A stretch of DNA of 64,000 nt from an uncultured Candidatus Saccharibacteria bacterium (GTDB lineage: Bacteria > Patescibacteriota > Saccharimonadia > Saccharimonadales > JACDBH01). This document shows positions 10,467 to 46,876 of this stretch, one piece after another. The notes beneath the pieces are model-generated. The model did no database searches. It saw nothing but the letters and a program-made list of their open reading frames with translations, and was not told where the DNA came from. The position numbers and the translations under genes are program-made. Location: contig CAYSJS010000003.1 of the NCBI GenBank assembly GCA_964431415.1, positions 36,422 to 100,421 of the forward strand, read 5' to 3'. Each line of letters starts with the position of its first letter. The first letter of the stretch is position 1.

Positions 10467-12230
10467 CTAGTACAGTTTGTTGCGAGACAAGCCACCCCAC
10501 TCAACCACCGTAAAGCCACTACGCTTTTGAGCGCTTAAACTTTGCTTTGGCATTGCAACTGGCGTGTCATATCCGGCCATATCTAGGAAAACACGGAGCA
10601 TCGTGTCCGGCTTTGGCGTAATGGTGAGTGGTGCAAGCTGATTGAGCTGCTCGGTCGTAAACCACGTTAAGCGCACGTATTGGTTGTTCGGAATCTTCAT
10701 GCCCCAATATTCCATAAAGTCGGTTACCTCCGCTCCACGCAAGCCTTGCTCACGGAGCTGCCTTTCAATCGTAGTATGTGCGTCTTGGCGCCGTACCACC
10801 GTTCCGCTTGAAATACTTGGGTACTCTCCATGCCCTGGCCCTTCCCAAAACAGTGAGCCATATGTTCGGCCTTGTACATTTAGCAAACCACTAGGCCACG
10901 CAAACGCATTCCAGCCCGTTCTGGGATCGTACTGCGGGTCAGATATTTTAACATCAGCGCCGACTTTTACCGTAACCACCTGCGGAACGGATGGATATAA
11001 ATAGACAACCGGTTTAGCACAGCCGCCGATCGGTGCATACTCATCGCTTGTATAGATTAATATGCCGTTATTAGGACTTTGGAAAGCAAAAATGGCGTGA
11101 TTTTTTATAAAATCTTCGAGGCTCATATTGGCCTTCTTGGCATCGGCACCCACATAAAATTCTTTTGTTTCTTGGTACGCTTTTTGGACTATGGTGTTAC
11201 CAGAATCTTTAAAATGATATAGCTGCTGGCCTGTAGCGGTTTTTCCTGCCGGCACGAGATCCTGCAGTGTTACTTCTTCTCCGCGGCTTACCGAAACACC
11301 CGAGCCGCAGCCTCGCACAATACCCCCGAACTTGCCGGTCACAGTAGTGCCGTTATCCCAGATTATTCCCGCAAAATCTTCCTTTAGCGGTACATAGGTC
11401 ATGGTTATTTCGGTTGCTATGGGAGTCTGGACGCGGTAACTAATTGCCGTAAGTTTTGTGTCGGCATATGTCTTTTCTACCTTGACGAGCTTGCTCCCCC
11501 CATATGTTTTTACAACCGTCGTCTTGATGCCACTGCTATCTTTGGGCAAGCTCGTGCCAACAGTCGGCCATTCCGGAAGGGTTAATACCTCTGAATTTTC
11601 AAGCTGCAACTGTGCCGGCACGCTTAACGAATCGTAATGCTGCGTCGTGTTGATGGTTATATTTGAAGCTACTCCATCCGCAATCCTGTCGTACTCCGTT
11701 GAATACGTTTGGTTTGCATTTGGATGCAAAATTAAACTAACCTGACCAGACTCGGTTTTTTCAAAAAGGTGCGTAAACTCACCAGCGTCGTATACGCGCG
11801 CTTTAATAATAGTAACGTTACCCCGCTTGCCTACCTCGTAATATTTGACCATCTCGGCATCTTCTTTATTGTAAGTAGTATCCAAATATCCTTGGAGGGG
11901 CATTTCTTTTGGTTCTGTGTACCATGTTTCGCCAGTTGTGGGAGCGGCAAATTTCTTGAGTAACTTTTCGGTTTCCGTGTCGGCAACGATCGTCGCTTCT
12001 TTTGGTGCAGAAACCGCCGGTGTTTGCTCGCTGGTAGATGGCGCTGCCGCCTTTTCTCTGCCAAGGATAAAGTAGCCGATTATGGTTGCAGCAATAAACA
12101 GCAACACCCCAAAAATAATAATTTGTTTTTTATGAAAGCGACTTGGCTTTTTTGGCTTGGCAACCGTGCTTTCAGCGGCTGCGGAGGGCGCTTTATTTTC
12201 TTCGGTTCTTTGCAGAGATTCAGGATCCAT
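10467..12230 (-). CDS. Hypothetical membrane-anchored extracytoplasmic protein (587 aa)
   Basis: Basic and Ala-rich N-terminus, then a TM helix (IIIFGVLLFIAATIIGYFIL), then a large mixed alpha/beta domain. No recognised motif. Confidence 0.5.
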   Translation of the reverse strand: MDPESLQRTEENKAPSAAAESTVAKPKKPSRFHKKQIIIFGVLLFIAATIIGYFILGREKAAAPSTSEQTPAVSAPKEATIVADTETEKLLKKFAAPTTGETWYTEPKEMPLQGYLDTTYNKEDAEMVKYYEVGKRGNVTIIKARVYDAGEFTHLFEKTESGQVSLILHPNANQTYSTEYDRIADGVASNITINTTQHYDSLSVPAQLQLENSEVLTLPEWPTVGTSLPKDSSGIKTTVVKTYGGSKLVKVEKTYADTKLTAISYRVQTPIATEITMTYVPLKEDFAGIIWDNGTTVTGKFGGIVRGCGSGVSVSRGEEVTLQDLVPAGKTATGQQLYHFKDSGNTIVQKAYQETKEFYVGADAKKANMSLEDFIKNHAIFAFQSPNNGILIYTSDEYAPIGGCAKPVVYLYPSVPQVVTVKVGADVKISDPQYDPRTGWNAFAWPSGLLNVQGRTYGSLFWEGPGHGEYPSISSGTVVRRQDAHTTIERQLREQGLRGAEVTDFMEYWGMKIPNNQYVRLTWFTTEQLNQLAPLTITPKPDTMLRVFLDMAGYDTPVAMPKQSLSAQKRSGFTVVEWGGLSRNKLY

Positions 12231-12296: not shown

Positions 12297-13391
12297 TTAG
12301 ATCAATATACCGCCACCGAGAACTTTTTCTCCATCGTATATAACCGCTGACTGACCCGGAGTGAGCGCACGAATCGGATCATCAAGTTGTACTTCTATAC
12401 CATTATCCAGTGTATGCACCCGAGCGCCAATTAGTGGCGATCGATGGCGGGTGCGCACCTGCACCTTCTTTCCGTCTTTGGGCGTTTCACGTATCCAATG
12501 TACGCTGGTCATTGTAAAGTTTTCATGCCAGAGGCGCTCATCGGATATATCGGTCGTGACATAGACCTCGTTTGTCTGCATATCTTTTCCGACCACATAA
12601 AAAGGCATGCCGCCGCCGACATCAAGCCCATGTCGCTGACCAATGGTATAAAATATGGCGCCGTCATGCTGGCCAACGCGCTTGCCGTTCTGGTCTATAA
12701 TCGCACCGGGCTGCTGCGGGCCTAGTTCATGAAGCAGAAACTCTTTAATTCCTACTTTGCCGACAAAACATATGCCCATGCTTTCTTTTTTTGTGGCCGT
12801 TACCAAGCCAAACTCCTCGGCCAGACGGCGCACTTCGGGCTTGGTTAGATCCCCTAAGGGGAAAAGGGTGTGCATGAGTGCTTGCTCGGTAATTCTATAC
12901 AAGAAATATGTCTGATCTTTGTTGTCATCCTTTGCTTTTCGCATTTCTGCAGCCGCAATGCTACCATCTTCGCGTAAACTATGATGAACGCGGGCGTAAT
13001 GACCGGTCGCAATCATATCCGCCCCATCTTCAAGCGCCGCTTCTAGGAACAGTTTAAACTTAACCTCCTGATTGCACATAATATCCGGGTTGGGCGTTCT
13101 GCCCGCCTGATATTCGGCCACCATGTAGTCGACAACTTTTTGGCGGTATTCTTTTTCAAAATCATACATCTTAAACGGTATGTCGAGCTGTACCGCAACC
13201 CGCTTGGCATCAGTAAAGTCAACTTTCCATGGACAAGTAAAACCGGGCAGGTCCTGACTCCAGTTTTTCATATAGACACCCGTAACCTGATAGCCTTGCT
13301 TTTTCAGCAAGGCCGCCGTCACCGAAGAGTCAACTCCGCCAGATAGTCCAACATATACACGTTTTGACATGTCGACAGTATACCATCTCAT
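12297..13391 (-). CDS. mnmA: tRNA-specific 2-thiouridylase MnmA
   Basis: PP-loop SGGVDSSV, the catalytic-Cys region and the overall MnmA/TrmU architecture. Confidence 0.9.
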   Translation of the reverse strand: MRWYTVDMSKRVYVGLSGGVDSSVTAALLKKQGYQVTGVYMKNWSQDLPGFTCPWKVDFTDAKRVAVQLDIPFKMYDFEKEYRQKVVDYMVAEYQAGRTPNPDIMCNQEVKFKLFLEAALEDGADMIATGHYARVHHSLREDGSIAAAEMRKAKDDNKDQTYFLYRITEQALMHTLFPLGDLTKPEVRRLAEEFGLVTATKKESMGICFVGKVGIKEFLLHELGPQQPGAIIDQNGKRVGQHDGAIFYTIGQRHGLDVGGGMPFYVVGKDMQTNEVYVTTDISDERLWHENFTMTSVHWIRETPKDGKKVQVRTRHRSPLIGARVHTLDNGIEVQLDDPIRALTPGQSAVIYDGEKVLGGGILI

Positions 13392-13442
13392 CTGTTATGG
13401 GGACACTACAAGGGGCGTAGATAACGCACTGTACGTTTTAAT

Positions 13443-14375
13443 TTAATACCGCACGCGCTTTTCGGCTTGGCGCCGGAGTGTAGTCAGCTGATCCCTGCGG
13501 CCCAGCCAAAACGCAACTATAGTCATAAGCGCTGATACGGCAAGCGGCCACCAAAGCACCACCTGCCGTACCGTCGCCTTTGTTACATCTGCCGTATTGT
13601 TCTGCACTGCGCCGTTAGCAACCGCCACAACCTGCAAAAATGCCGTATTACCGTTCGCATCCGTTACCTTGACGACCACGGTATAGGTCCCGGCACTTGT
13701 GTAGGTATGTTTTACGGTAAAAAGCCCTCCCGCGCTCCGGCTTACCAAGTCGGTTGTGCCATCACCCCAGTTTACGCTTACCGCAAACGGTGCCGTACCA
13801 CCGCTGATAGAGAACGGCCATTCCAGCTCCTCGTTTGGGTTAGCTCCTCGTTTGGCAAAAAAGCTAGTCAAAGAGACACGCGGACCCGAGGCATTAAACC
13901 CGGTTTGGTTATAGGTAACTTTTACAGTATTAGAATCTGGCCCTTGCTGATCAAGTGCATCATATATACGGACAACAATGTTGTTTTCGCCGCTAAACAA
14001 GTCCACAGACAAGCTATAGCTGCCGTTAAGACACTGCGCGGAACCTACAAACACGCCGTTTGAAAATACCTTTACGAGTACATCTCCGCTACACAAGCCG
14101 CTAACTGTAATTGGTATGGCGGTCACCGTCTGACCGTTTTGAGGAGTCGTGACGGTGGGAGCCACAGAAGGTGGGTCAGCTGGTATTACCGCCTGGAGTC
14201 CTGATGATTGCGAAGCCGGACCCGGATCCGCATGCATTTTTCCTGTCATTAACGCAACACTAAGCACACTCAGCAAGCAAAACGCTATAAGTCGCATAAA
14301 ATAGAGTCTAGAGTAGGCACGAGTCATTAAACTGATTATAGCAAACCTTTTATGCTTTACTCTAGCAACACCCAA
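13443..14375 (-). CDS. Secreted PKD-domain protein with a C-terminal membrane anchor
   Basis: Signal peptide (LIAFCLLSVLSVALMTG). PKD-like block (VSVNWGDGTTD...HTYTSAGTYTVVVKVTDANGNTA). C-terminal hydrophobic helix followed by basic residues (LWWPLAVSALMTIVAFWLGRRDQ). Confidence 0.55.
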   Translation of the reverse strand: MGVARVKHKRFAIISLMTRAYSRLYFMRLIAFCLLSVLSVALMTGKMHADPGPASQSSGLQAVIPADPPSVAPTVTTPQNGQTVTAIPITVSGLCSGDVLVKVFSNGVFVGSAQCLNGSYSLSVDLFSGENNIVVRIYDALDQQGPDSNTVKVTYNQTGFNASGPRVSLTSFFAKRGANPNEELEWPFSISGGTAPFAVSVNWGDGTTDLVSRSAGGLFTVKHTYTSAGTYTVVVKVTDANGNTAFLQVVAVANGAVQNNTADVTKATVRQVVLWWPLAVSALMTIVAFWLGRRDQLTTLRRQAEKRVRY

Positions 14376-14384
14376 ATGGGGTAT

Positions 14385-15350
14385 CTAGCGGCGCTTACTG
14401 CGGCGATTTTGCAAACGATGCACCAAGATGTATCCGGCAACAACAACCGCTACAAGCAGAACCAATCCGGCAATCACCGCCCAGAGCGGAACATACCAAA
14501 AGCTCGTTTTAGCGTTTATGAGGTCATTATCTGCCGATGGCTCATAGCCCAAGCTCGCCGTTACGGTGTAGTGACCAAACCACTTTTTCTTGCCCAGAGC
14601 TGTTTCAAACTTTCGTATGCTGTTAGGCAGGACGTTAGAGCGCGGTTCTTCGTTGTTGATCTCGACATTTGCTACCACTTTGCCACGCGAATCTTTAACC
14701 TGAATTTTTCCGTACGGCTTTTCGTGCGTATCACCATCGTTCTTAAGCCTTGTGACAATGCTCACATCGCCCCCAGTAATAAACTTTTTAGTTTTACCGT
14801 TAACGGCTGCACTTATTTGCTCAAGGGCGAGATGCTGCTTTATGTCACCGGGGACATTCACTAAAAAGAGCGACCCGACGCTTGCGGTCAGGTTGACGTT
14901 TGCTTGGCTGGCGTTATCGGCAGGAACAAAACGAACCGCCCCATAATAGCCGCCCGCTGCAGCGTCTGCGGGGATAGATATGGTAATATACACATCCTTA
15001 CGCTCATTAGCGGCTATGGTAAAGTCCGGAACACTCTGAACCAGCTTCTTCAGGCTGTGACTGGAGGCGGTTGCCCCATCCAGCAGCAACTGTGGCTGCC
15101 CACTTTCGGAATCGCTGGGAATAAAATCGTTAATCAGGGCTCGAACTTTCATCGGCAAGCCGGTTGGGTTCTCTACCGTTATTCTCTCCGTGCCCGATTT
15201 GCCTTTTTCTATAGTCATTTCGTTACGAATAGGCGAAACCCGGAAGCCGTTAGCGGTTTGGTTGGTGGACTGTGCAAAAGCCGAGCCGTTCATAATTGCC
15301 AGCAATGCAAGTACGGTTAGTACGCGACCAAGTCGCTGTAACATTTTCAT
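14385..15350 (-). CDS. Signal-peptide protein with an Ig-like N-domain resembling PapD-like pilus chaperones / DUF916 cell-surface proteins, plus a C-terminal TM anchor
   Basis: Signal peptide MKMLQRLGRVLTVLALLAIMNGSAFA. FRVSPIRNEMTIEKGKSGTERITVENPTGLPMKV matches the 'RvI.p....ges.sltv.N.g..p' start of PapD_N/DUF916 domains (from memory). The C-terminus is a TM helix plus a basic tail (VIAGLVLLVAVVVAGYILVHRLQNRRSKRR). Confidence 0.45.
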   Translation of the reverse strand: MKMLQRLGRVLTVLALLAIMNGSAFAQSTNQTANGFRVSPIRNEMTIEKGKSGTERITVENPTGLPMKVRALINDFIPSDSESGQPQLLLDGATASSHSLKKLVQSVPDFTIAANERKDVYITISIPADAAAGGYYGAVRFVPADNASQANVNLTASVGSLFLVNVPGDIKQHLALEQISAAVNGKTKKFITGGDVSIVTRLKNDGDTHEKPYGKIQVKDSRGKVVANVEINNEEPRSNVLPNSIRKFETALGKKKWFGHYTVTASLGYEPSADNDLINAKTSFWYVPLWAVIAGLVLLVAVVVAGYILVHRLQNRRSKRR

Positions 15351-15472
15351 AACGATTGTAATATACCCCTAGAATTTAATGATAACGCACTTATGGTAAC
15401 AGAGAATTCGTGTCGTTGTCCATCTAAAAAGCACTAGTGGTTTTTACTACAATTACCTAGAATAGAGTTAGT

Positions 15473-16147
15473 ATGTACAGAATCGGGCACCGGAAAAAGC
15501 GCATTCGTCATCACGTTGTTGTGATTAGTTTGGTGGTTTTTGTAATCGCTGCAGTTACAGGCAGTATCTTTTGGCTTTTGCTACTCCGTTCGGACGTCAC
15601 GTATATTGAACAGACCGAACCTGGCACCCAAACGTTTGACCCAGAAGAAGCCAACAAGAATGTAAAAATAGATACCCCGCTCTATACTATGGAACTGCCA
15701 AAGGACTGGAAACAAATCAGCCAGAACAAGGACGACCGTTACGCAAGCACGGAATGGCAGTTACAGACAGGCATGTCCAACCGGTGGATCGAGTTATACA
15801 CCGACCGCATACCGCCAGAGAAAGTGTTTAATAAAATTATCCCCGTCACCATCAGCAACAACGTTATAGTTCCGGAGGCCGCTTCAGACAACTGTATTAA
15901 ATTCACCCAGTCATCCAGTACAAGCCTGATTGTGGCATCAAAATGGCAGAATGCTCCTTTCTTATGTGATTTTAGCCACTGGAACGACAATATTGTTGGT
16001 GTCTCCGAAAAGAATAAAGGTACAGTTTTCTCACTAACCGGCCCCTCGAAGGGTACGCACACATACATGTTCGTCTATACAGACAGAGGCATACCAGAAG
16101 ATTCACAGCCAATTATAACCGCGCTTTCTACACTGCGGCCAAAATAG
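15473..16147 (+). CDS. Hypothetical bitopic membrane protein (N-in, one TM, extracytoplasmic domain) embedded in the surface-protein cluster
   Basis: Basic N-terminus, then TM VVVISLVVFVIAAVTGSIFWLLLL, then a 180-aa hydrophilic domain. It is the only plus-strand gene inside the cluster. Confidence 0.45.
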   Translation: MYRIGHRKKRIRHHVVVISLVVFVIAAVTGSIFWLLLLRSDVTYIEQTEPGTQTFDPEEANKNVKIDTPLYTMELPKDWKQISQNKDDRYASTEWQLQTGMSNRWIELYTDRIPPEKVFNKIIPVTISNNVIVPEAASDNCIKFTQSSSTSLIVASKWQNAPFLCDFSHWNDNIVGVSEKNKGTVFSLTGPSKGTHTYMFVYTDRGIPEDSQPIITALSTLRPK

Positions 16148-16149
16148 TT

Positions 16150-17211
16150 TTAGTAGTTTCCGACCGCTAAGTAGGTAATGGTCGTAGCATAGTACCCAGA
16201 CGGCTGGCTGGCATTTATATTCACGATGTAACTCGCCGTAAATATGCGGTAATTGTCAGGACCACCGACGCTTGCGATCGCATCGCCGTTTTTAAAGATA
16301 TAATTATCAGGAACGGCATAATTCCCTACCGGCGATGCACTTCCCGGACCGCTCGGCTCGGCGCCTACATTGGGCGCAATATTACTGCGCAAGTTCATAC
16401 CAAACTGGTTGGTTCCCGGTAGAGAAACGCTAAGCGTACTGAGCGGGGGCAAAACATTGTTGCCTGACGTGAGCGAATTACCCAAAACACTGATCGTATA
16501 GCCGTTGTCGGCGTTGGTTGCCGCCGCAAACTGAGATGTTCCGCTTTTGGCTGTCGCCGTAGAAAGCGCCCCAAAATCAACAATCGAACCGACCGGCGCC
16601 GTACAATCATTGGTTGTGATTGTCGTCCCAACACATAAGTCAATGTAAGGCGGAACGGTTGTCGAAATGGTCAAATCGCCCAAAATTGCATAGGCGATAC
16701 CGGCGGCATCAGTCAGGGCCCCTCCGGCGCTCGCGCCCGAAAATATTTGTAACCGCACGTACTGCGAACCTACGTTGTCGGGGTTTTCTACGCCCCCTAG
16801 TTCGAACCGAAAGCTCGTGGCATTAACCGCGCTTGGCGGGCGAGAAAGCACTATTTTATGCGCATTAGTCATAGGAATGTCTTTAAAAAAGTCGTTAGTG
16901 CCCGACTGCGAAAGTATGGTTGCAGAGCTAATATCAAAACCGCTCGGCACCGTACAAGACGTGCCTGGGAAAGGGTCGTTTTCGCAAAATTCAATTTCTA
17001 CTGATCCGATCGTGGTCGTAGAAATCGTATCAAAACCTATCTCATATGTTACGCCCACATGCCCGGCAACACTGTCAGACAATTTGACATATCTATTGGG
17101 TAAGGTGCTCGAAAAAGCACCGGTATGCGTAAGCGGTCTTACTGTCATAAGTAAGACCGCTAAGCCTAAGATGAGCAGGCTCTTTTTGTGATCACCTACA
17201 CGTAGACGCAT
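16150..17211 (-). CDS. Secreted Thr/Ser/Gly-rich protein, paralog 1 of 3, with two SCPU/Csu-pilin-like repeats
   Basis: Signal peptide. Two Cys pairs (FCENDPFPGTSC; LCVGTTITTNDC). QFGMNL motif. C-terminus ...FTASYIVNINASQPSGYYATTITYLAVGNY-COOH is clearly homologous to the C-termini of the next two ORFs. Confidence 0.5.
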   Translation of the reverse strand: MRLRVGDHKKSLLILGLAVLLMTVRPLTHTGAFSSTLPNRYVKLSDSVAGHVGVTYEIGFDTISTTTIGSVEIEFCENDPFPGTSCTVPSGFDISSATILSQSGTNDFFKDIPMTNAHKIVLSRPPSAVNATSFRFELGGVENPDNVGSQYVRLQIFSGASAGGALTDAAGIAYAILGDLTISTTVPPYIDLCVGTTITTNDCTAPVGSIVDFGALSTATAKSGTSQFAAATNADNGYTISVLGNSLTSGNNVLPPLSTLSVSLPGTNQFGMNLRSNIAPNVGAEPSGPGSASPVGNYAVPDNYIFKNGDAIASVGGPDNYRIFTASYIVNINASQPSGYYATTITYLAVGNY

Positions 17212-17238
17212 GTAACCGCCTTTCCCTTTATTTAGGGC

Positions 17239-18405
17239 CTAGTAAACACCGGTCGCGATAAAGGTAAAGGTAGAGGTATAGACACCGGATTTGGTCGTGG
17301 TTGAGGATTTGCCTACAAAATCAACGGTAGTCGCCGCTTCAGTGGTTGGGCCGGCTGTCGTTACGATAGTATCCCCGTAAGTAACTGCCAGGTTGGTCGA
17401 GTCGAAGCTGTGGTTACCGGCAGCGCAAGCGTATCCAGCGTCAACAGTATGACCCGACCCTGCCGTAGCCGAGAGACCGAACTGTTCAACCGATGCTGTG
17501 GTAGAATCTGCCGTACACGATCCAGATCCTGAGCCTATTGCGGCAATCGTGTTCGCTCCAGAGGTCAGTGTGCCCGTTGCTTTAGCGCGAACCGTCACAC
17601 CAGTAGTTGCGTTACTTGCAATGCCCAGCTTTGCAGTAAGCGGCGTTGTTGCATTGGTTGAAGTGAGGTAAGCGGTGGTAGTGCTAGACAGCACGCCGAA
17701 TGAGTCACCAAGCACCATACCGGCCACGGAACCACCAGCACAGTTAGCGCCCGTGGTGTACACACAGAAGGTCAATGTTTCCTGAACCTTAGCGGTCACG
17801 GTGATCTGCGCAGCAGTAGAGAGCGCAACACCGCCTTCATCAACATGAGTTGCACCCGTGTCTGGGTTTGCAACGGTATAGCTCGTAGCACCGGCAGTTA
17901 CAGAGTACGTGTAGATACGTGCATAAAACGTACCAACTGCGCTTGTTGGGTTCTGTACGTTATTGATCGTAAAGTCGGCAACAGTCGCATTAGTAAAAGA
18001 CACGCCGGTTGCCTGAGTGAGTAGTAGGGTGCGACCTGAGTTTGCGGATGCGGCCGTCCATGTCTGTGTATTCATCGGAGTTGTGTTCATAGTGACAGAC
18101 GGCGAGCCACCAACAGTAAAGTTGGTCGGAGCAGTACAGGTCGTGTCGCCAATAATAGGTGAGTTGGCACAAAAGTCTATAACGATACCGCGACCGGTAT
18201 AAGTTGAAGTGGTGGTAAATTTCACATTATAAGAGGTAGTAGCCGTACTTCCAGCGTTACTAGAATTGCTCATTTGGATCGAACGTGACGTGACCTGGCC
18301 TGCCGAGGCAGCTTGCGGTCTTAGTGCCAGCACAGGCACCAGGGCAAGTACCACTGCCGAAGCGACGTAGGCGATCCGCTTGAGTAAGCGAGTCAAAATT
18401 AACAT
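17239..18405 (-). CDS. Secreted Thr/Ser/Gly-rich protein, paralog 2 of 3 (SCPU/Csu-pilin-like)
   Basis: Signal peptide (VASAVVLALVPVLAL). Cys pairs FCANSPIIGDTTC and FCVYTTGANC. EQFGLSA motif. C-terminus KSGVYTSTFTFIATGVY-COOH. Confidence 0.5.
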   Translation of the reverse strand: MLILTRLLKRIAYVASAVVLALVPVLALRPQAASAGQVTSRSIQMSNSSNAGSTATTSYNVKFTTTSTYTGRGIVIDFCANSPIIGDTTCTAPTNFTVGGSPSVTMNTTPMNTQTWTAASANSGRTLLLTQATGVSFTNATVADFTINNVQNPTSAVGTFYARIYTYSVTAGATSYTVANPDTGATHVDEGGVALSTAAQITVTAKVQETLTFCVYTTGANCAGGSVAGMVLGDSFGVLSSTTTAYLTSTNATTPLTAKLGIASNATTGVTVRAKATGTLTSGANTIAAIGSGSGSCTADSTTASVEQFGLSATAGSGHTVDAGYACAAGNHSFDSTNLAVTYGDTIVTTAGPTTEAATTVDFVGKSSTTTKSGVYTSTFTFIATGVY

Positions 18406-18517
18406 ATCATAATTTCCTTTTTATTTTTTATCTATACAGTTGAAATTTAGCATAATCAGTATACGCTTGCAAACAGATATTATGCGTAGTTATCCACAGG
18501 TTACGTTAAACGCACAG

Positions 18518-19312
18518 TTAGTAGCCGGCAGTAGCCACTAAAACGTGATTCATCGTGTACAAGCCAGACGGCGTTGTATTGGCAATGTTTAAAATATACG
18601 AAATCGTAAAGTCTGTACGCCCACTACTCTTGGTCGACTGCGCAATGATATCCCCATTGGCATATTTGTAAGAGTTAGCCGTGTTATAACCGCTTGCCGC
18701 CGCACCATAGCTAAATGTTCCATCTGGTATCTGTACCGGCGCCGAGCCAAAAGAAGTGCTCGGCAGACAAAGTGCACAGGTGTTGGCCATAAGATTTATA
18801 CCAAACTGCTCGGTCCCGACCGCAGAAGCGGTTGCCGTCCCGGGCGATGCCATGGTATGGCCGTTGTATGTTGGCCCAACAGAGGCGTTGCGCACCACAT
18901 ACCCACTGGAAACATACGCTTTTACATAAAATGTAGCCGTGCCCTGCGACGTCGAAGCGACCGACTGCTGACCCAGCGCAACTGTCGAGCCGTTTACTAC
19001 AAATTCTATGTACTCATCACGCGGTGTTATTGGACCGGCCTCGGCTGCGTAATTGGTGCTGGCAGCACCTCCCACACCTAGCGCACCCGTACTTCCGTTA
19101 GCCGAATAGTTTGGGCTGCTCAGATTATTTTCACCACCAGTCCCAAAGGAGTATTCATAGGTAGAATAGCTCGGCGATGACGACGTCTGCGCCCACGCCG
19201 CGCTTGGTACCAATGCAGCCAAAAAGACCACAAGGAGCGCTCGCCAAAATGTTTTGATTACTCTTTTACTCATACCGTAGTGACTATTATATAGCGCTTT
19301 TGCTTCTTGCAC
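18518..19312 (-). CDS. Secreted Thr/Ser/Gly-rich protein, paralog 3 of 3 (single SCPU/Csu-pilin-like domain)
   Basis: Signal peptide (RALLVVFLAALVPSAAWA). CALC pair. EQFGINL motif. C-terminus FTISYILNIANTTPSGLYTMNHVLVATAGY-COOH aligns residue-by-residue with paralog 1. Confidence 0.5.
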   Translation of the reverse strand: MQEAKALYNSHYGMSKRVIKTFWRALLVVFLAALVPSAAWAQTSSSPSYSTYEYSFGTGGENNLSSPNYSANGSTGALGVGGAASTNYAAEAGPITPRDEYIEFVVNGSTVALGQQSVASTSQGTATFYVKAYVSSGYVVRNASVGPTYNGHTMASPGTATASAVGTEQFGINLMANTCALCLPSTSFGSAPVQIPDGTFSYGAAASGYNTANSYKYANGDIIAQSTKSSGRTDFTISYILNIANTTPSGLYTMNHVLVATAGY

Positions 19313-19409: not shown

Positions 19410-20422
19410 ATGAACCAAGATCCTTCTTCACTTGAAAGCAATAGCCTCGAGACCCCGGAACCGATTCAACCCGGTACGCTGCCCGGTTCTGGTGCTAATT
19501 CGGAAGCTCCTGCGCCTGCACCGTCCGATACGGGTGTAGTAGATCCAGATGCGCCAAAAAATGGAGCAAACGGTCCGAAAGAGAGGCTGCTCGGTCGCCT
19601 GCTAGGGAAACTAAATATCTATTCGGTGCTCTTAATCGTCGTTATGCTCATTTTAGTCGTAGCGACTATTCTTGCTCTCAGGCAAAACAGAATTTCAACC
19701 AACAAGAGCGCCCTCAAAACCCAGGAGCTTACCCAGGAAGCCATCGATAAACTGGCAGAAACCTCACCCACTGTCGGCAGCGCATCCGAAACCCTAAACA
19801 TCGCTTCAAATGCCATATTTAATGGCAGTATTCTCGTTAAGGGCGGGATAGACGTTGCCGGCGGACTAAAAATAGGTAGTGCCCTCTCGTTGCCCACAAT
19901 TAGCGTTGGCGATACGGCGACTGTCGAACTCTTGGCCGCAAAAAGAATAACAGTTGCCGGTGACACCGCCGTTCAAGGCAAAATGACCATCCAAAACGGT
20001 TTAAGTGTCATTGGTGGCGGCACATTTAGTGGACCACTTTCTGCTTCCCAGGTAACAACAGACAAATTGCAGCTGAATGGCGATCTGCAACTCACCCAGC
20101 ACATCGACCCGAACGGCGTATCGCCAAGCCGAACCAATGGCAGCGCACTAGGCGGCGGCGGTACTGCATCCGTAAGCGGCACCGATACAGCCGGAACAGT
20201 TGTAATTAATACAGGCAACAGCGCGCCCGCTGGTTGTTTTGTAACCATTAACTTTACAAAAGCTTTCACGGGTACCCCGCACGTCGTTATTTCGCCCTCC
20301 AGCTCAACTGCCGCAACGCTCAATTACTACACCAACCGTAGCACCGGCAACTTTAGTATCTGTAGTGCTGGCGACCCACCAGACAACACCGCCAACATTA
20401 CTTTCGACTACATCGTCATTGA

Positions 20423-20426
<4 letters not shown>
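19410..20426 (+). CDS. Membrane-anchored protein with a Gly-rich beta-solenoid-like repeat ectodomain
   Basis: Acidic and Pro-rich N-terminus, then TM (IYSVLLIVVMLILVVATILAL). Repeats of the type GSILVKGGIDVAGGLKIGSALSLPTISVGD / ITVAGDTAVQGKMTIQNGLSVIGGGTFSG are reminiscent of bactofilin or other beta-helix repeats. It is divergent from the paralog operon. Confidence 0.45.
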
Positions 20427-45859: not shown

Positions 45860-46876
45860 TTAGTTCGTTCCGCGAAGTGCACGCATGCGGTACAAGAATG
45901 CACCGATGAATGAAACACCGAGGAAGATAGCGATCGTACTGCCAGCACCGGTTTTTGGCAGCTCGGTTGGAGGAGTTACAGGCTTTTTAACAAAGCTGAT
46001 AACGCTCGCACACTTGTCGCTTGTCTTAGAAACCGTCTTACCATCCACAGTAAAGTTGGTAGTTACTTTTACATTCTTTGAGTTGTTAAGATCTGTGTAG
46101 GTGTGGTCGGCGGTTGCAACATCATCTTTCTTTACGCCATCACCGAAGTCATAGCTTACGTTCTTGAAGGTAGCACCGTTTGCTGCAGTGTAGTTAACGC
46201 TAAAGCGGAACTTGTTGTCAGCGAGTTTGGTAACCGTCAAAAGGTCACAGCTGTAGATTGGGGTAACCGGCGCCTTCTTAACATGAATCTTAACTTTTAC
46301 ACTTATGTAAGCGCGATATTCAAAACAACCAGGAACGATACCGTTATACCCAAGAGTAGCGTTATCCATAATGTTGCCTGTTAATGTGTAAGGAACATTC
46401 CATTGTGGTGCATTGGTCGTCATTGCCTGGCTTACATATTCAAGACTAATTTCTTGCCCCTGGCATGTAATGAACACATTGTCTGTTGCGAGTGCAGAGT
46501 TGTCTGCCTTCACTGAAGCTAAGATTTCTTGGCTCTTTGCATATCCGGTGTTTTTAAAATCAACATCAACCTTCGTGTTCTTTGCTACACCAACACCATC
46601 ATTGTTTGCACCGTTTAATTCGGTAGGGTTGGTATTGTGAACATAAAACCACAAGTCAACAGTTTGGTCTTCAGTACATGCTTCTGTCGTATCTGGACCG
46701 TTTGCATCTGTAATTCTTAAAAAGTTCTTTTCTTCGCCGATTCCATTTACACCAGAACCATTGTTAAACACAACAGCTGGAGCAGCGGAAACCATTGCTG
46801 TACCGATAACGAAAGTTGCAGCAAGTAAGCTTAGTGAGCTTACGAGAGCCTTTACTTTTGTACTAATGAATTTCAT
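45860..46876 (-). CDS. Sortase-anchored (LPXTG) cell-surface protein
   Basis: N-terminal signal peptide. C-terminal LPKTG, then a hydrophobic segment (AGSTIAIFLGVSFIGAFLY), then a basic tail RMRALRGTN, which is the classical sorting signal. Confidence 0.65.
   Translation of the reverse strand: MKFISTKVKALVSSLSLLAATFVIGTAMVSAAPAVVFNNGSGVNGIGEEKNFLRITDANGPDTTEACTEDQTVDLWFYVHNTNPTELNGANNDGVGVAKNTKVDVDFKNTGYAKSQEILASVKADNSALATDNVFITCQGQEISLEYVSQAMTTNAPQWNVPYTLTGNIMDNATLGYNGIVPGCFEYRAYISVKVKIHVKKAPVTPIYSCDLLTVTKLADNKFRFSVNYTAANGATFKNVSYDFGDGVKKDDVATADHTYTDLNNSKNVKVTTNFTVDGKTVSKTSDKCASVISFVKKPVTPPTELPKTGAGSTIAIFLGVSFIGAFLYRMRALRGTN

What the first reader, a model, noticed from the sequence alone, without database searches (positions are those of the whole stretch)
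14385..15350. Membrane-tethered PapD-like/DUF916-like protein as a possible monoderm 'chaperone'
The protein has a cleavable-looking signal peptide (…AIMNGSAFA|QST…). It ends with a hydrophobic helix plus RLQNRRSKRR, so its Ig-like N-domain would be held on the outer face of the membrane.

The conserved Arg in the first beta-strand (FRVSPIRNE) is the residue that PapD-type chaperones use to clamp the subunit C-terminal carboxylate, if the homology holds. Anchoring instead of periplasmic solubility is what one would expect in an organism without an outer membrane.
Basis: partly seen in the sequence, partly recalled or inferred. Interest (0 to 1): 0.6.

Follow-up and report, generated by a model that had tools for sequence, protein, structure and literature searches.

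The report
Membrane-anchored pilus chaperone of Saccharibacteria

Summary

The gene sits in a Pam pilus operon (PamT, two Pam pilins, this gene, PamR). NCBIfam recognises that operon, and it is syntenic in 80 of 80 Saccharibacteria loci. A 2026 bioRxiv preprint (Troman et al.) proposes membrane-anchored PapD/FimC-like chaperones, PamC and PamD, for this system, based on AlphaFold and Foldseek.

- **DUF916-like: true homology.** Profile-profile comparison with Firmicutes WxLIPs gives 96-98% probability, and the best PDB fold matches are the E. faecium WxLIP crystal structures.
- **PapD-like: fold level only.** Foldseek matches CfaA, CsuC, YadV and EcpB, but there is no Pfam PapD hit and hhalign probability is below 1%.
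- **Arg clamp: unproven.** R42 is conserved in 60 of 61 orthologs and in 6 of 6 copies of a longer paralog found in some related genomes. R37 is not conserved. No alignment places R42 on PapD R8, and K112 has no basic counterpart.
- **Pilin C-termini.** Pam pilins end in an aromatic residue in 223 of 227 cases, which fits C-terminus recognition.

The chaperone function is inferred. No experiment has tested it.

The parts
14385..15350 (-). Target gene: 321-aa Pam-operon membrane-anchored chaperone-like protein, a WxLIP homolog at the PamC/PamD position
   Evidence: The ORF is listed and has 334 homologs. It lies between the PamE-like pilin and PamR in 80 of 80 loci. The model has pLDDT 87.7.
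15273..15350 (-). Sec signal peptide, residues 1-26, with cleavage at AFA|Q
   Evidence: The sequence shows an AXA site. A26 and Q27 are at least 90% conserved. A hydrophobic segment spans residues 7-25.
14847..15263 (-). N-terminal Ig-like domain, residues 30-168, DUF916/WxLIP_PGBD-like. It contains the GFRVSPIR first strand with conserved R42, the invariant GGYYGAVRF strand, and a lower-confidence loop plus strand (144-166, NV-L-ASVGSL-LV-VPG) that is the candidate donor strand.
   Evidence: PF06030 hits are. hhalign of the N-domain against WxLIP gives 96.9% probability, E 1.9e-10. Conservation is. pLDDT is 62-73 for residues 141-160.
14490..14846 (-). C-terminal Ig-like domain, residues 169-287, the DUF3324-equivalent position, with invariant N204, G206, H209, P212, G214, N232, L241, P242, R246 and F248
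   Evidence: Seven strands are predicted. It aligns collinearly with WxLIP domain 2 within the ectodomain alignment. It is not significant on its own and has no PF11797 hit.
14388..14489 (-). Transmembrane helix and cytoplasmic basic tail, residues 288-321 (...HRLQNRRSKRR)
   Evidence: Helix 289-320. Hydropathy. P288 is invariant. Ortholog tails end in R or K.
13443..14375 (-). PamR: RbmA-like membrane-anchored protein, the proposed pilus terminator and anchor. It starts 9 nt downstream of the target.
   Evidence: NF058578 scores 374.6 bits against a cut-off of 300. Its proposed role is described in the preprint.
16150..17211 (-). Pam pilin (PamE-like) with a Pam_pilin_C domain, ending ...AVGNY
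   Evidence: NF058581 gives E 6.3e-47. It is present in 76 of 80 loci directly upstream of the chaperone.
17239..18405 (-). Pam pilin (PamA/PamB-like) with a conserved linker strand (GG-ALSTA--ITVTAKV), ending ...ATGVY
   Evidence: NF058581 gives E 3.5e-17.
18518..19312 (-). PamT, the proposed tip pilin, ending ...ATAGY
   Evidence: NF058579 scores 282.7 bits against a cut-off of 240. The model has pLDDT 80, and its best PDB fold matches are the CsuA/B, CsuE, CfaB and PapG pilin domains.
19410..20426 (+). Conserved divergent neighbour: a membrane-anchored 'tail-fibre-like' protein with weak bactofilin and H-lectin similarity
   Evidence: Pfam hits are weak. It is present in 53 of 80 loci at this position. 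The preprint notes it as central to the neighbourhood.

Best explanation
The gene encodes the membrane-tethered chaperone of a Pam pilus operon in a Saccharibacterium, a monoderm CPR bacterium.

Proposed mechanism:
1. The protein is exported by Sec and its signal peptide is cleaved at AFA|Q.
2. Its two Ig-like domains then sit on the outer face of the cytoplasmic membrane, held by the C-terminal helix with the basic tail in the cytoplasm.
3. It captures newly exported Pam pilins, whose C-terminal Ig-like domain lacks a strand.
4. It completes that fold by inserting a strand of its own. The best candidate is the flexible loop plus last strand of domain 1, residues about 146-166.
5. This keeps the pilins assembly-competent until the linker strand of the next pilin displaces it by donor-strand exchange.
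6. The pilus therefore grows at the membrane without an usher, and PamR terminates and anchors it.

In evolutionary terms the protein is a homolog of the Firmicutes WxL-interacting proteins (DUF916-DUF3324-TM). It is not a detectable sequence relative of PapD/FimC, which it resembles only in fold and presumed mode of action.

Shown here: gene, topology, fold, operon context and WxLIP homology. Inferred: pilin binding, which strand is donated, and the chaperone role.
For: - Operon identity: NCBIfam PamR (374 bits), PamT (282 bits) and Pam_pilin_C on the neighbours.
- Synteny: PamT, pilins, PamE-like pilin, this gene, PamR, mnmA in 80 of 80 Saccharibacteria loci.
- Fold: the AF2 model has pLDDT 87.7, with two beta-sandwiches and a TM helix.
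- Foldseek against PDB: top hits are E. faecium WxLIP 9i1y and 9i25 (E 2.5e-11, TM-score normalised to target length (TMt) 0.48-0.54). Next come the chaperones CfaA (E 8.5e-9, TMt 0.55), CsuC, YadV and EcpB.
- Homology: hhalign against six Firmicutes WxLIPs gives 97.9% probability full length. It gives 95.9% (E 6.4e-9) without the signal peptide and TM, and 96.9% for the N-domain alone.
- Pfam: PF06030 hits 61 of 61 members.
- Clients: the PamT model best matches chaperone-usher pilins. Cryo-EM of PamA and PamB shows donor-strand exchange. Pilin-family ORFs end in Y or F in 223 of 227 cases.
- Candidate donor segment: residues 141-160 have the lowest confidence in the ectodomain (pLDDT 62-73) and are followed by a conserved amphipathic strand.
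- Published proposals: WxLIP is predicted to insert a strand into WxL and is crystallised bound to WxL (9i25). The preprint proposes the same role for PamC and PamD from AlphaFold complexes.
Against: - No experiment or complex model was available here. The tools return no coordinates, so which strand is donated and whether R42, R140 or R246 face a cleft is untested.
- There is no sequence-level link to PapD-like chaperones.
- The Pam pilin C-domain shows no detectable homology to WxL domains (at most 0.5% probability), so homology on the chaperone side need not mean the same client-binding mode.
- Orthology to M. amalyticus PamC versus PamD could not be checked, because those sequences were not obtainable.
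- NCBIfam 20.0 has no model that hits this protein.
- The preprint's own chaperone assignment is purely computational.
Confidence: 0.7

Rival explanations
1. It is a stable WxLIP-like anchor or adaptor rather than a transient chaperone. In this reading it permanently holds a Pam subunit or the pilus base at the membrane or cell wall by strand complementation, as WxLIP is proposed to hold WxL proteins on the surface. It may also bind peptidoglycan.
For: - Whole-ectodomain homology to WxLIPs, and the best structural matches are WxLIP and the WxLIP-WxL complex.
- WxLIP is described as binding and stabilising WxL on the surface, not as a recycling chaperone.
- It has the same signal peptide, two Ig domains and TM architecture.
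Against: - The operon already has a dedicated predicted anchor, PamR, immediately downstream.
- The clients are donor-strand-exchange pilins that polymerise, so the complementing strand must be released.
- There are no WxL-domain proteins nearby, and Pam pilins are not detectably WxL-like.
- The WxLIP NQxDKxxxYFDLK motif is absent from this family.
Confidence: 0.18
2. It is a bona fide member of the PapD/FimC chaperone family that has acquired a membrane anchor. In this reading R42 is the direct R8 equivalent and clamps the pilin C-terminal carboxylate together with a K112 equivalent.
For: - Fold similarity to CfaA, CsuC, YadV and EcpB.
- R42 lies in the first strand and is conserved in 60 of 61 orthologs and in 6 of 6 copies of the longer paralog.
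- R140 is invariant in the orthologs.
- Pilins end in a conserved aromatic residue, as expected if the C-terminus is recognised.
- The non-significant hhalign alignment is collinear, strand for strand.
Against: - No PF00345 or PF02753 match in any of the 61 members.
- hhalign probability is 0.13-0.9% against 13 classical chaperones, whole or by domain.
- In that alignment R8 falls opposite M45 and K112 opposite L163.
- R140 becomes K, R or Q in the longer paralog.
- The closest sequence relatives, the WxLIPs, have no basic residue at the R42 position.
- There is no usher gene in the operon.
Confidence: 0.07
3. It is a generic Ig-like surface protein, such as an adhesin or a host- or cell-wall-binding protein, that is merely co-located with the pilus genes and has no role in assembly.
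For: Two-Ig-domain proteins of many functions (RbmA, CEP192 SPD-2, hydin, transglutaminase C-domains) also score E 1e-7 to 1e-10 in Foldseek. The second WxLIP domain has been proposed to bind host surfaces.
Against: - The position between the pilin and PamR is invariant in 80 of 80 loci, with a 9-nt gap to PamR.
- The non-chaperone Foldseek hits have much lower TM-scores (TMt 0.1-0.33) than WxLIP and the chaperones (0.45-0.56).
- Core motifs are invariant across the family, whereas a diversifying adhesin would be expected to vary.
Confidence: 0.05

Closest known systems
PamC / PamD, putative membrane-anchored chaperones of the Pam pilus of Ca. Mycosynbacter amalyticus (Troman et al., bioRxiv 10.64898/2026.03.03.709456)
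   Same: - It sits in the same operon type, with PamT, Pam pilins, PamR and adjacent ATP synthase genes.
- It has a signal peptide, two beta-sandwich domains with FimC/PapD-like fold, and a C-terminal TM helix.
- It has the same proposed usher-less donor-strand mechanism.
   Different: - This is a different Saccharibacterium. Direct sequence comparison with WP_260763277.1 and WP_260763284.1 was not possible.
- This window has only one such gene, whereas M. amalyticus has two.
- Six of 80 related loci carry a second, longer paralog with a Cys-bounded insert. That may correspond to the PamD 'extra hairpin', in which case the target would be PamC-like in type although it occupies the PamD position.
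- The preprint does not mention DUF916 or WxL homology.
WxL-interacting protein (WxLIP; DUF916/PF06030 + DUF3324/PF11797 + TM helix) of Enterococcus, Lactobacillus, Listeria, Lactococcus and Bacillus; PDB 9i1y, 9i25
   Same: - It is homologous in sequence: hhalign 95.9-97.9% probability, and PF06030 hits 61 of 61 members.
- WxLIP structures are the best structural matches.
- The architecture is identical: signal peptide, two Ig domains, TM helix and basic tail.
- Both are found in monoderms.
- WxLIP is predicted to donate a beta-strand to complete its partner's sandwich.
   Different: - The partners are Pam pilins that polymerise, not WxL-domain proteins. No WxL genes are nearby and there is no Pam-pilin/WxL homology.
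- It lacks the NQxDKxxxYFDLK insert.
- Domain 2 does not reach PF11797.
- The family has its own invariant motifs: GGYYGAVRF, R42 and R246.
Chaperone-usher periplasmic chaperones (PapD, FimC; alternate and archaic CfaA, EcpB, CsuC)
   Same: - Two-Ig-domain fold: Foldseek E 8.5e-9 to 1e-6, TMt 0.45-0.56.
- The clients have a chaperone-usher pilin-like incomplete Ig fold and a conserved C-terminus.
- The presumed mechanism is donor-strand complementation and exchange.
   Different: - No detectable sequence homology.
- It is membrane-anchored rather than soluble.
- There is no usher and no outer membrane.
- R8 and K112 equivalents are not demonstrable.

Membership tests
Pam pilus chaperone (PamC/PamD) | Encoded in a pam operon next to Pam pilins and PamR | tested here: met
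   NCBIfam PamR, PamT and Pam_pilin_C hit the neighbours. Synteny holds in 80 of 80 loci.
Pam pilus chaperone (PamC/PamD) | N-terminal Sec signal peptide and C-terminal transmembrane helix | tested here: met
   AXA site and hydrophobic segments at residues 7-25 and 282-315. Helix 289-320 in the model.
Pam pilus chaperone (PamC/PamD) | Two beta-sandwich domains with structural similarity to FimC/PapD-type chaperones | tested here: met
   The model has pLDDT 87.7. Foldseek hits CfaA, CsuC, YadV and EcpB with probability 1.00.
Pam pilus chaperone (PamC/PamD) | Sequence orthology to WP_260763277.1 (PamC) or WP_260763284.1 (PamD) | not tested
   The M. amalyticus sequences were not retrievable with the remaining caps. 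No NCBIfam model hits either chaperone type.
Pam pilus chaperone (PamC/PamD) | Binds the pilin C-terminal domain by strand complementation | not testable with these tools
   No multimer prediction or coordinates are available. In the preprint this rests only on AlphaFold complexes.
WxLIP (DUF916-DUF3324-TM) | DUF916 / PF06030 domain | tested here: met
   The target alone is sub-threshold (21.1 bits against 27.3, E 3.3e-4). However, 61 of 61 family members hit, with best E 1.9e-9. hhalign of the N-domain against true WxLIPs gives 96.9% probability, E 1.9e-10.
WxLIP (DUF916-DUF3324-TM) | DUF3324 / PF11797 second domain | tested here: inconclusive
   No PF11797 hit at E <= 1, and the C-domain alone is not significant. 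Domain 2 nevertheless aligns collinearly, with shared motifs, inside the significant ectodomain alignment.
WxLIP (DUF916-DUF3324-TM) | Clustered with at least two WxL-domain proteins | tested here: not met
   The neighbours have no WxL Pfam hit. Pam pilin C-domains against a WxL alignment give at most 0.5% probability.
WxLIP (DUF916-DUF3324-TM) | Conserved N-terminal NQIDKxxxYFDLK motif | tested here: not met
   The motif corresponds to an 11-residue segment that is absent from the CPR family.
Chaperone-usher periplasmic chaperone (PapD/FimC) | PapD_N (PF00345) and PapD_C (PF02753) sequence domains | tested here: not met
   No hit in the target or in any of the 61 members. hhalign probability is 0.13-0.9%.
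Chaperone-usher periplasmic chaperone (PapD/FimC) | Invariant cleft residues R8 and K112 that anchor the subunit C-terminal carboxylate | tested here: inconclusive
   R42 (60/61) and R140 (61/61) are conserved basic residues in the first and sixth strands of domain 1. The only alignment is non-significant and puts R8 opposite M45 and K112 opposite L163. No coordinates were available for superposition.
Chaperone-usher periplasmic chaperone (PapD/FimC) | Soluble periplasmic protein working with an outer-membrane usher | tested here: not met
   It has a C-terminal TM anchor. None of the conserved families mapped at these loci is an usher.

The most novel reading that the evidence does not exclude
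The Pam pilus chaperones of CPR bacteria and the WxL-interacting proteins of Firmicutes form one homologous family of membrane-tethered, strand-donating partner proteins. This would point to an ancient, usher-less monoderm way of holding or assembling incomplete Ig-fold surface proteins. The homology itself is shown here. The Pam preprint does not mention this link, and neither of the two library papers read in full does. If the mechanism is shared, WxL clusters could be reinterpreted as donor-strand systems. The CPR-specific conserved arginines R42 and R246, together with the invariant aromatic pilin C-terminus, could then be an independently evolved analogue of the PapD R8/K112 carboxylate clamp.
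Probability: 0.45. Interest if true: 0.55.

Novelty: already known. Interest (0 to 1): 0.33.

Why it matters
The Pam pilus is the first donor-strand-exchange pilus described in a monoderm, usher-less setting. Its filaments were found to be important for host interaction in a cultivated Saccharibacterium. The anchored chaperone is the key to how such a pilus can be built without an outer membrane.

For this window the gene is an ortholog of a component that has already been proposed, so the finding itself is not new. The useful additions are threefold:
- A firm sequence-level link to the WxLIP family of Gram-positive bacteria. Crystal structures exist for that family, so there are experimental templates for the Pam chaperone.
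- A corrected candidate residue set for mutagenesis: R42, R246 and the 146-166 loop and strand, rather than R37.
- The observation that one chaperone type is universal in these operons and a second type is optional.

Tried and rejected
- **PDB sequence search.** A profile of the family against PDB gave no meaningful hit at E <= 10. The WxLIP structures were found only by fold search.
- **Second chaperone (PamC) in the window.** BLASTP and an HMM of the family found nothing. The only other protein with a signal peptide and a C-terminal TM is 45860-46876. It is an LPKTG sortase substrate with PKD-like similarity, not a chaperone.
- **PamT structure from locus sequences.** I redid it with database homologs.
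- **FimC homolog search.** It returned only sequences at least 74% identical to FimC, so the profile was poor. I added five E. coli K-12 paralogous chaperones. Profile comparison was still non-significant.
- **Are Pam pilins WxL-like?** Foldseek of PamT shows chaperone-usher pilins and no WxL chain in the top 50. hhalign against six WxL proteins gives at most 0.5% probability, and the positive controls worked. Rejected at the sensitivity available.
- **Donor-strand motif comparison.** Comparing the chaperone segment 150-166 with the pilin linker strands showed only a generic amphipathic beta pattern. This is not used as evidence.
- **Promoter and terminator scan.** Counts were close to those in shuffled sequence: 9 promoter-like sites against 7.4 expected and 11 terminator-like sites against 6.2. 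One -35/-10-like site at 15422-15393 (-) lies upstream of the gene.
- **Not possible here.** Superposing the model on PapD or CsuC, and measuring cleft geometry, because no coordinates are returned.
Full report
**1. Observation**

The finding's coordinates are exact. Window 14385..15350 (-) is an ATG-initiated ORF of 321 aa.

The N-terminus, MKMLQRLGRVLTVLALLAIMNGSAFA|QST, has a basic n-region, a hydrophobic core (residues 7-25 by Kyte-Doolittle hydropathy) and an A-F-A cleavage motif. A26 and Q27 are at least 90% conserved among 61 orthologs.

The C-terminus is a hydrophobic segment (282-315) that AlphaFold2 models as helix 289-320. It is followed by HRLQNRRSKRR. Orthologs end in R or K in 67 of 86 cases. 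After signal peptide cleavage the protein should therefore be a type I membrane protein, with its ectodomain outside and a short basic tail inside.

The gene is real. It has 334 database homologs with E <= 1e-3, the best at 1e-204. Where a source name is given, the homologs are almost all labelled Saccharibacteria or Saccharimonadales.

**2. What it is: context**

NCBIfam (release 20.0, June 2026) identifies the neighbours as a CPR "Pam pilus system":
- 13443-14375 (-) is PamR (NF058578, 374.6 bits, cut-off 300).
- 16150-17211 (-) and 17239-18405 (-) carry the Pam pilin C-domain (NF058581).
- 18518-19312 (-) is PamT (NF058579, 282.7 bits, cut-off 240).

The target lies 9 nt upstream of PamR.

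I fetched 80 related loci from species-representative genomes and mapped the window's proteins onto them. The order is essentially fixed: atpD, atpC, a divergent "tail-fibre-like" gene, PamT, pilin(s), PamE-like pilin, this gene, PamR, mnmA, alaS. This gene is present in 80 of 80 loci, PamR in 77 and the PamE-like pilin in 76.

Seventy-four loci have a single copy of this gene. Six have a second, longer paralog (348-389 aa) with a Cys-bounded insert in domain 2. The window has one copy only.

**3. Literature**

A bioRxiv preprint (Troman et al., 10.64898/2026.03.03.709456) solved cryo-EM structures of PamA and PamB filaments from Ca. Mycosynbacter amalyticus. It showed donor-strand exchange between pilins.

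From AlphaFold and Foldseek, the authors proposed that two operon proteins, PamC and PamD, are FimC/PapD-like chaperones. [quoted passage not shown]

That evidence is computational only. The preprint contains no occurrence of "WxL" or "DUF916".

**4. Tests of the interpretation**

*(a) DUF916.* The target alone hits PF06030 (WxLIP_PGBD, formerly DUF916) below threshold: 21.1 bits against 27.3, E 3.3e-4. All 61 aligned family members hit it at E <= 0.01, with the best at 1.9e-9.

I retrieved six genuine Firmicutes "DUF916 and DUF3324 domain-containing" proteins, each encoded next to WxL-domain genes. I compared their profile with the family profile:

| Comparison (hhalign) | Probability | E-value |
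|---|---|---|
| Full length | 97.9% | 6e-13 |
| Signal peptide and TM removed (205 columns) | 95.9% | 6.4e-9 |
| N-domain alone | 96.9% | 1.9e-10 |
| Second domain alone | not significant | - |

The second domain aligns collinearly inside the ectodomain alignment, with matching motifs: TRLKNDGD with VNLQND, LPNSIRKF with APNSNF, and GHYT with GDYH. The DUF916-like call is therefore real homology that extends over the whole architecture.

*(b) Structure.* The AF2 model (61-sequence alignment, mean pLDDT 87.7, pTM 0.70) has two beta-sandwiches and the TM helix. Foldseek against the PDB gave:
- The E. faecium WxLIP crystal structures first: 9i1y, and 9i25 bound to a long WxL protein (E 2.5e-11 to 1e-10, TM-score normalised to target length (TMt) 0.47-0.54).
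- Then the chaperone-usher chaperones CfaA (E 8.5e-9, TMt 0.55), CsuC, YadV and EcpB.
- Other two-Ig-domain proteins (RbmA, CEP192, hydin, transglutaminases) at similar E-values but much lower TM-scores (0.1-0.33).

*(c) PapD at sequence level.* There is no PF00345 or PF02753 hit in any member. hhalign against FimC alone gives 0.3%. Against an alignment of 13 classical chaperones it gives 0.13%. That alignment comprises FimC orthologs plus E. coli YadV, ElfD, YcbF, YehC and YraI. Domain-wise comparisons stay below 1%, and the same is true for WxLIPs against the chaperones. The PapD-like label therefore holds for fold and presumed mechanism, not for family membership.

*(d) The arginine.* In FRVSPIRNE, R37 is variable (39 R, 12 K, 10 other) and R42 is conserved (60/61). 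R42 is also basic in all six copies of the longer paralog (NPRRDY), as is R246 (QTRRF). R140, in the invariant GGYYGAVRF, becomes K, R or Q there.

R42 lies in the split first strand, roughly where R8 lies in PapD. The only available alignment is non-significant and puts FimC R8 opposite M45 and K112 opposite L163. Firmicutes WxLIPs have no basic residue at the R42 position. No coordinates are returned by the tools, so cleft geometry could not be examined.

There is one piece of indirect support for C-terminus recognition. The pilin-family ORFs of these loci end in an aromatic residue as the very last residue in 223 of 227 cases. By family this is PamT 54/55, PamE-like 74/76 and PamA/B-like 95/96. 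PamR and the chaperone do not show this.

*(e) The clients.* A model of PamT (pLDDT 80) best matches chaperone-usher pilins: the CsuA/B pilus 7zl4, CsuE, CfaB and the PapG pilin domain. E-values are 7e-3 to 1.3e-2 and probabilities 0.96-0.99. No WxL chain appears among the top 50. hhalign of the Pam pilin C-domains against six WxL proteins gives at most 0.5%, while the internal controls give 98.7-99.9%. The chaperone side is therefore homologous to WxLIP, but the client side is not detectably homologous to WxL.

**5. Mechanism**

*Shown:* export signal, membrane anchor, two-Ig ectodomain, operon membership and WxLIP homology.

*Inferred:* the ectodomain binds newly exported pilins by donating a strand into their incomplete C-terminal Ig domain, and the next pilin's linker strand later displaces it.

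The best candidate for the donated element is the lowest-confidence ectodomain segment (residues 141-160, pLDDT 62-73) together with the conserved strand NV-L-ASVGSL-LV-VPG. This sits where chaperone-usher chaperones have the F1-G1 loop and G1 strand, and where WxLIP has the hairpin predicted to insert into WxL.

I put 0.7 on this chaperone reading. I put 0.18 on a more static WxLIP-like anchor role. PamR, the predicted anchor, sits next door, and polymerising pilins require the complementing strand to be released. Both points argue against a static role.

**6. Comparison and novelty**

The protein is a member of the Pam chaperone class by context, topology and fold. Orthology to PamC versus PamD is unresolved. 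It occupies the PamD position, between the PamE-like pilin and PamR. However, it lacks the insert that distinguishes the longer paralog, and that insert may be the "additional hairpin" described for PamD.

It is a divergent homolog of WxLIP but fails two WxLIP cluster criteria. It has no WxL partners and no NQIDK motif. It is not a PapD-family member by sequence.

Because the central claim is already published and the operon is already modelled in NCBIfam, I rate novelty as "already known" and interest as modest.

The Pam preprint does not mention it, and neither of the two library papers read in full does. A library search for "WxLIP" returned four papers, none of them about CPR bacteria. The session also refined the candidate residues.

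The publication behind PDB entries 9i1y and 9i25 was not in the searchable library. I cannot exclude that it already draws a chaperone analogy.

Noticed in passing
window 45860-46876 (-): A 338-aa secreted protein ends in LPKTG, a hydrophobic helix and a basic tail. This is a classical sortase-anchoring signal, with weak PKD- and BppU-Ig-like similarity. It is consistent with a Gram-positive-type envelope in this Saccharibacterium.
   Followed up: partly
window 15473-16147 (+): A 224-aa ORF with an N-terminal TM segment lies on the opposite strand, between the PamE-like pilin and the chaperone. Homologs were found in only 5 of 80 related loci. In the three closest relatives (L001-L003) it lies at this position; in L010 and L061 it lies elsewhere in the operon. 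In most genomes the pilin and chaperone genes are adjacent. Its function is unknown.
   Followed up: partly
window 16150-19312 (-) and loci L001-L080: Pam pilin-family proteins end with an aromatic residue (Y or F) as the very last amino acid in 223 of 227 ORFs. The residue at -2 is usually G or A. This suggests the free C-terminus is functionally recognised.
   Followed up: yes
loci L026, L028, L029, L030, L050, L059: A second, longer chaperone paralog (348-389 aa) has a Cys-bounded insert of about 25 residues in domain 2 and the motifs GVNPRRDY and GAGSYYGAIKY. It is present in only 6 of 80 loci. It may correspond to the PamC/PamD split described for M. amalyticus.
   Followed up: partly
window 18518-19312 (-), PamT residues about 41-100: The proposed tip pilin has a conserved but low-confidence N-terminal extension (pLDDT below 50). 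It contains repeated NY-x-A-x-G-like motifs and two conserved Cys in orthologs. The tip pilin is said to lack a donor strand, so the role of this segment is unexplained.
   Followed up: no
window 19410-20426 (+): A membrane-anchored 338-aa protein has a disordered N-terminus, one TM segment, a bactofilin-like beta-helical region and a weak H-type-lectin match. It is transcribed divergently from PamT and conserved at this position in 53 of 80 loci. The Pam preprint calls it 'tail fibre-like'.
   Followed up: partly
locus L088, about 13140-15830: In a related Saccharibacteria contig, genes for a reverse transcriptase (RVT_1) and a bAvd accessory protein lie between mnmA and alaS, next to the pam operon. 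Together they resemble a diversity-generating retroelement. These genes are not present in this window.
   Followed up: no
window 10467-12230 (-): A 587-aa protein with a single N-terminal TM segment and no Pfam or NCBIfam match lies between mnmA and alaS. Homologs were found at this position in only 6 of 80 related loci.
   Followed up: no
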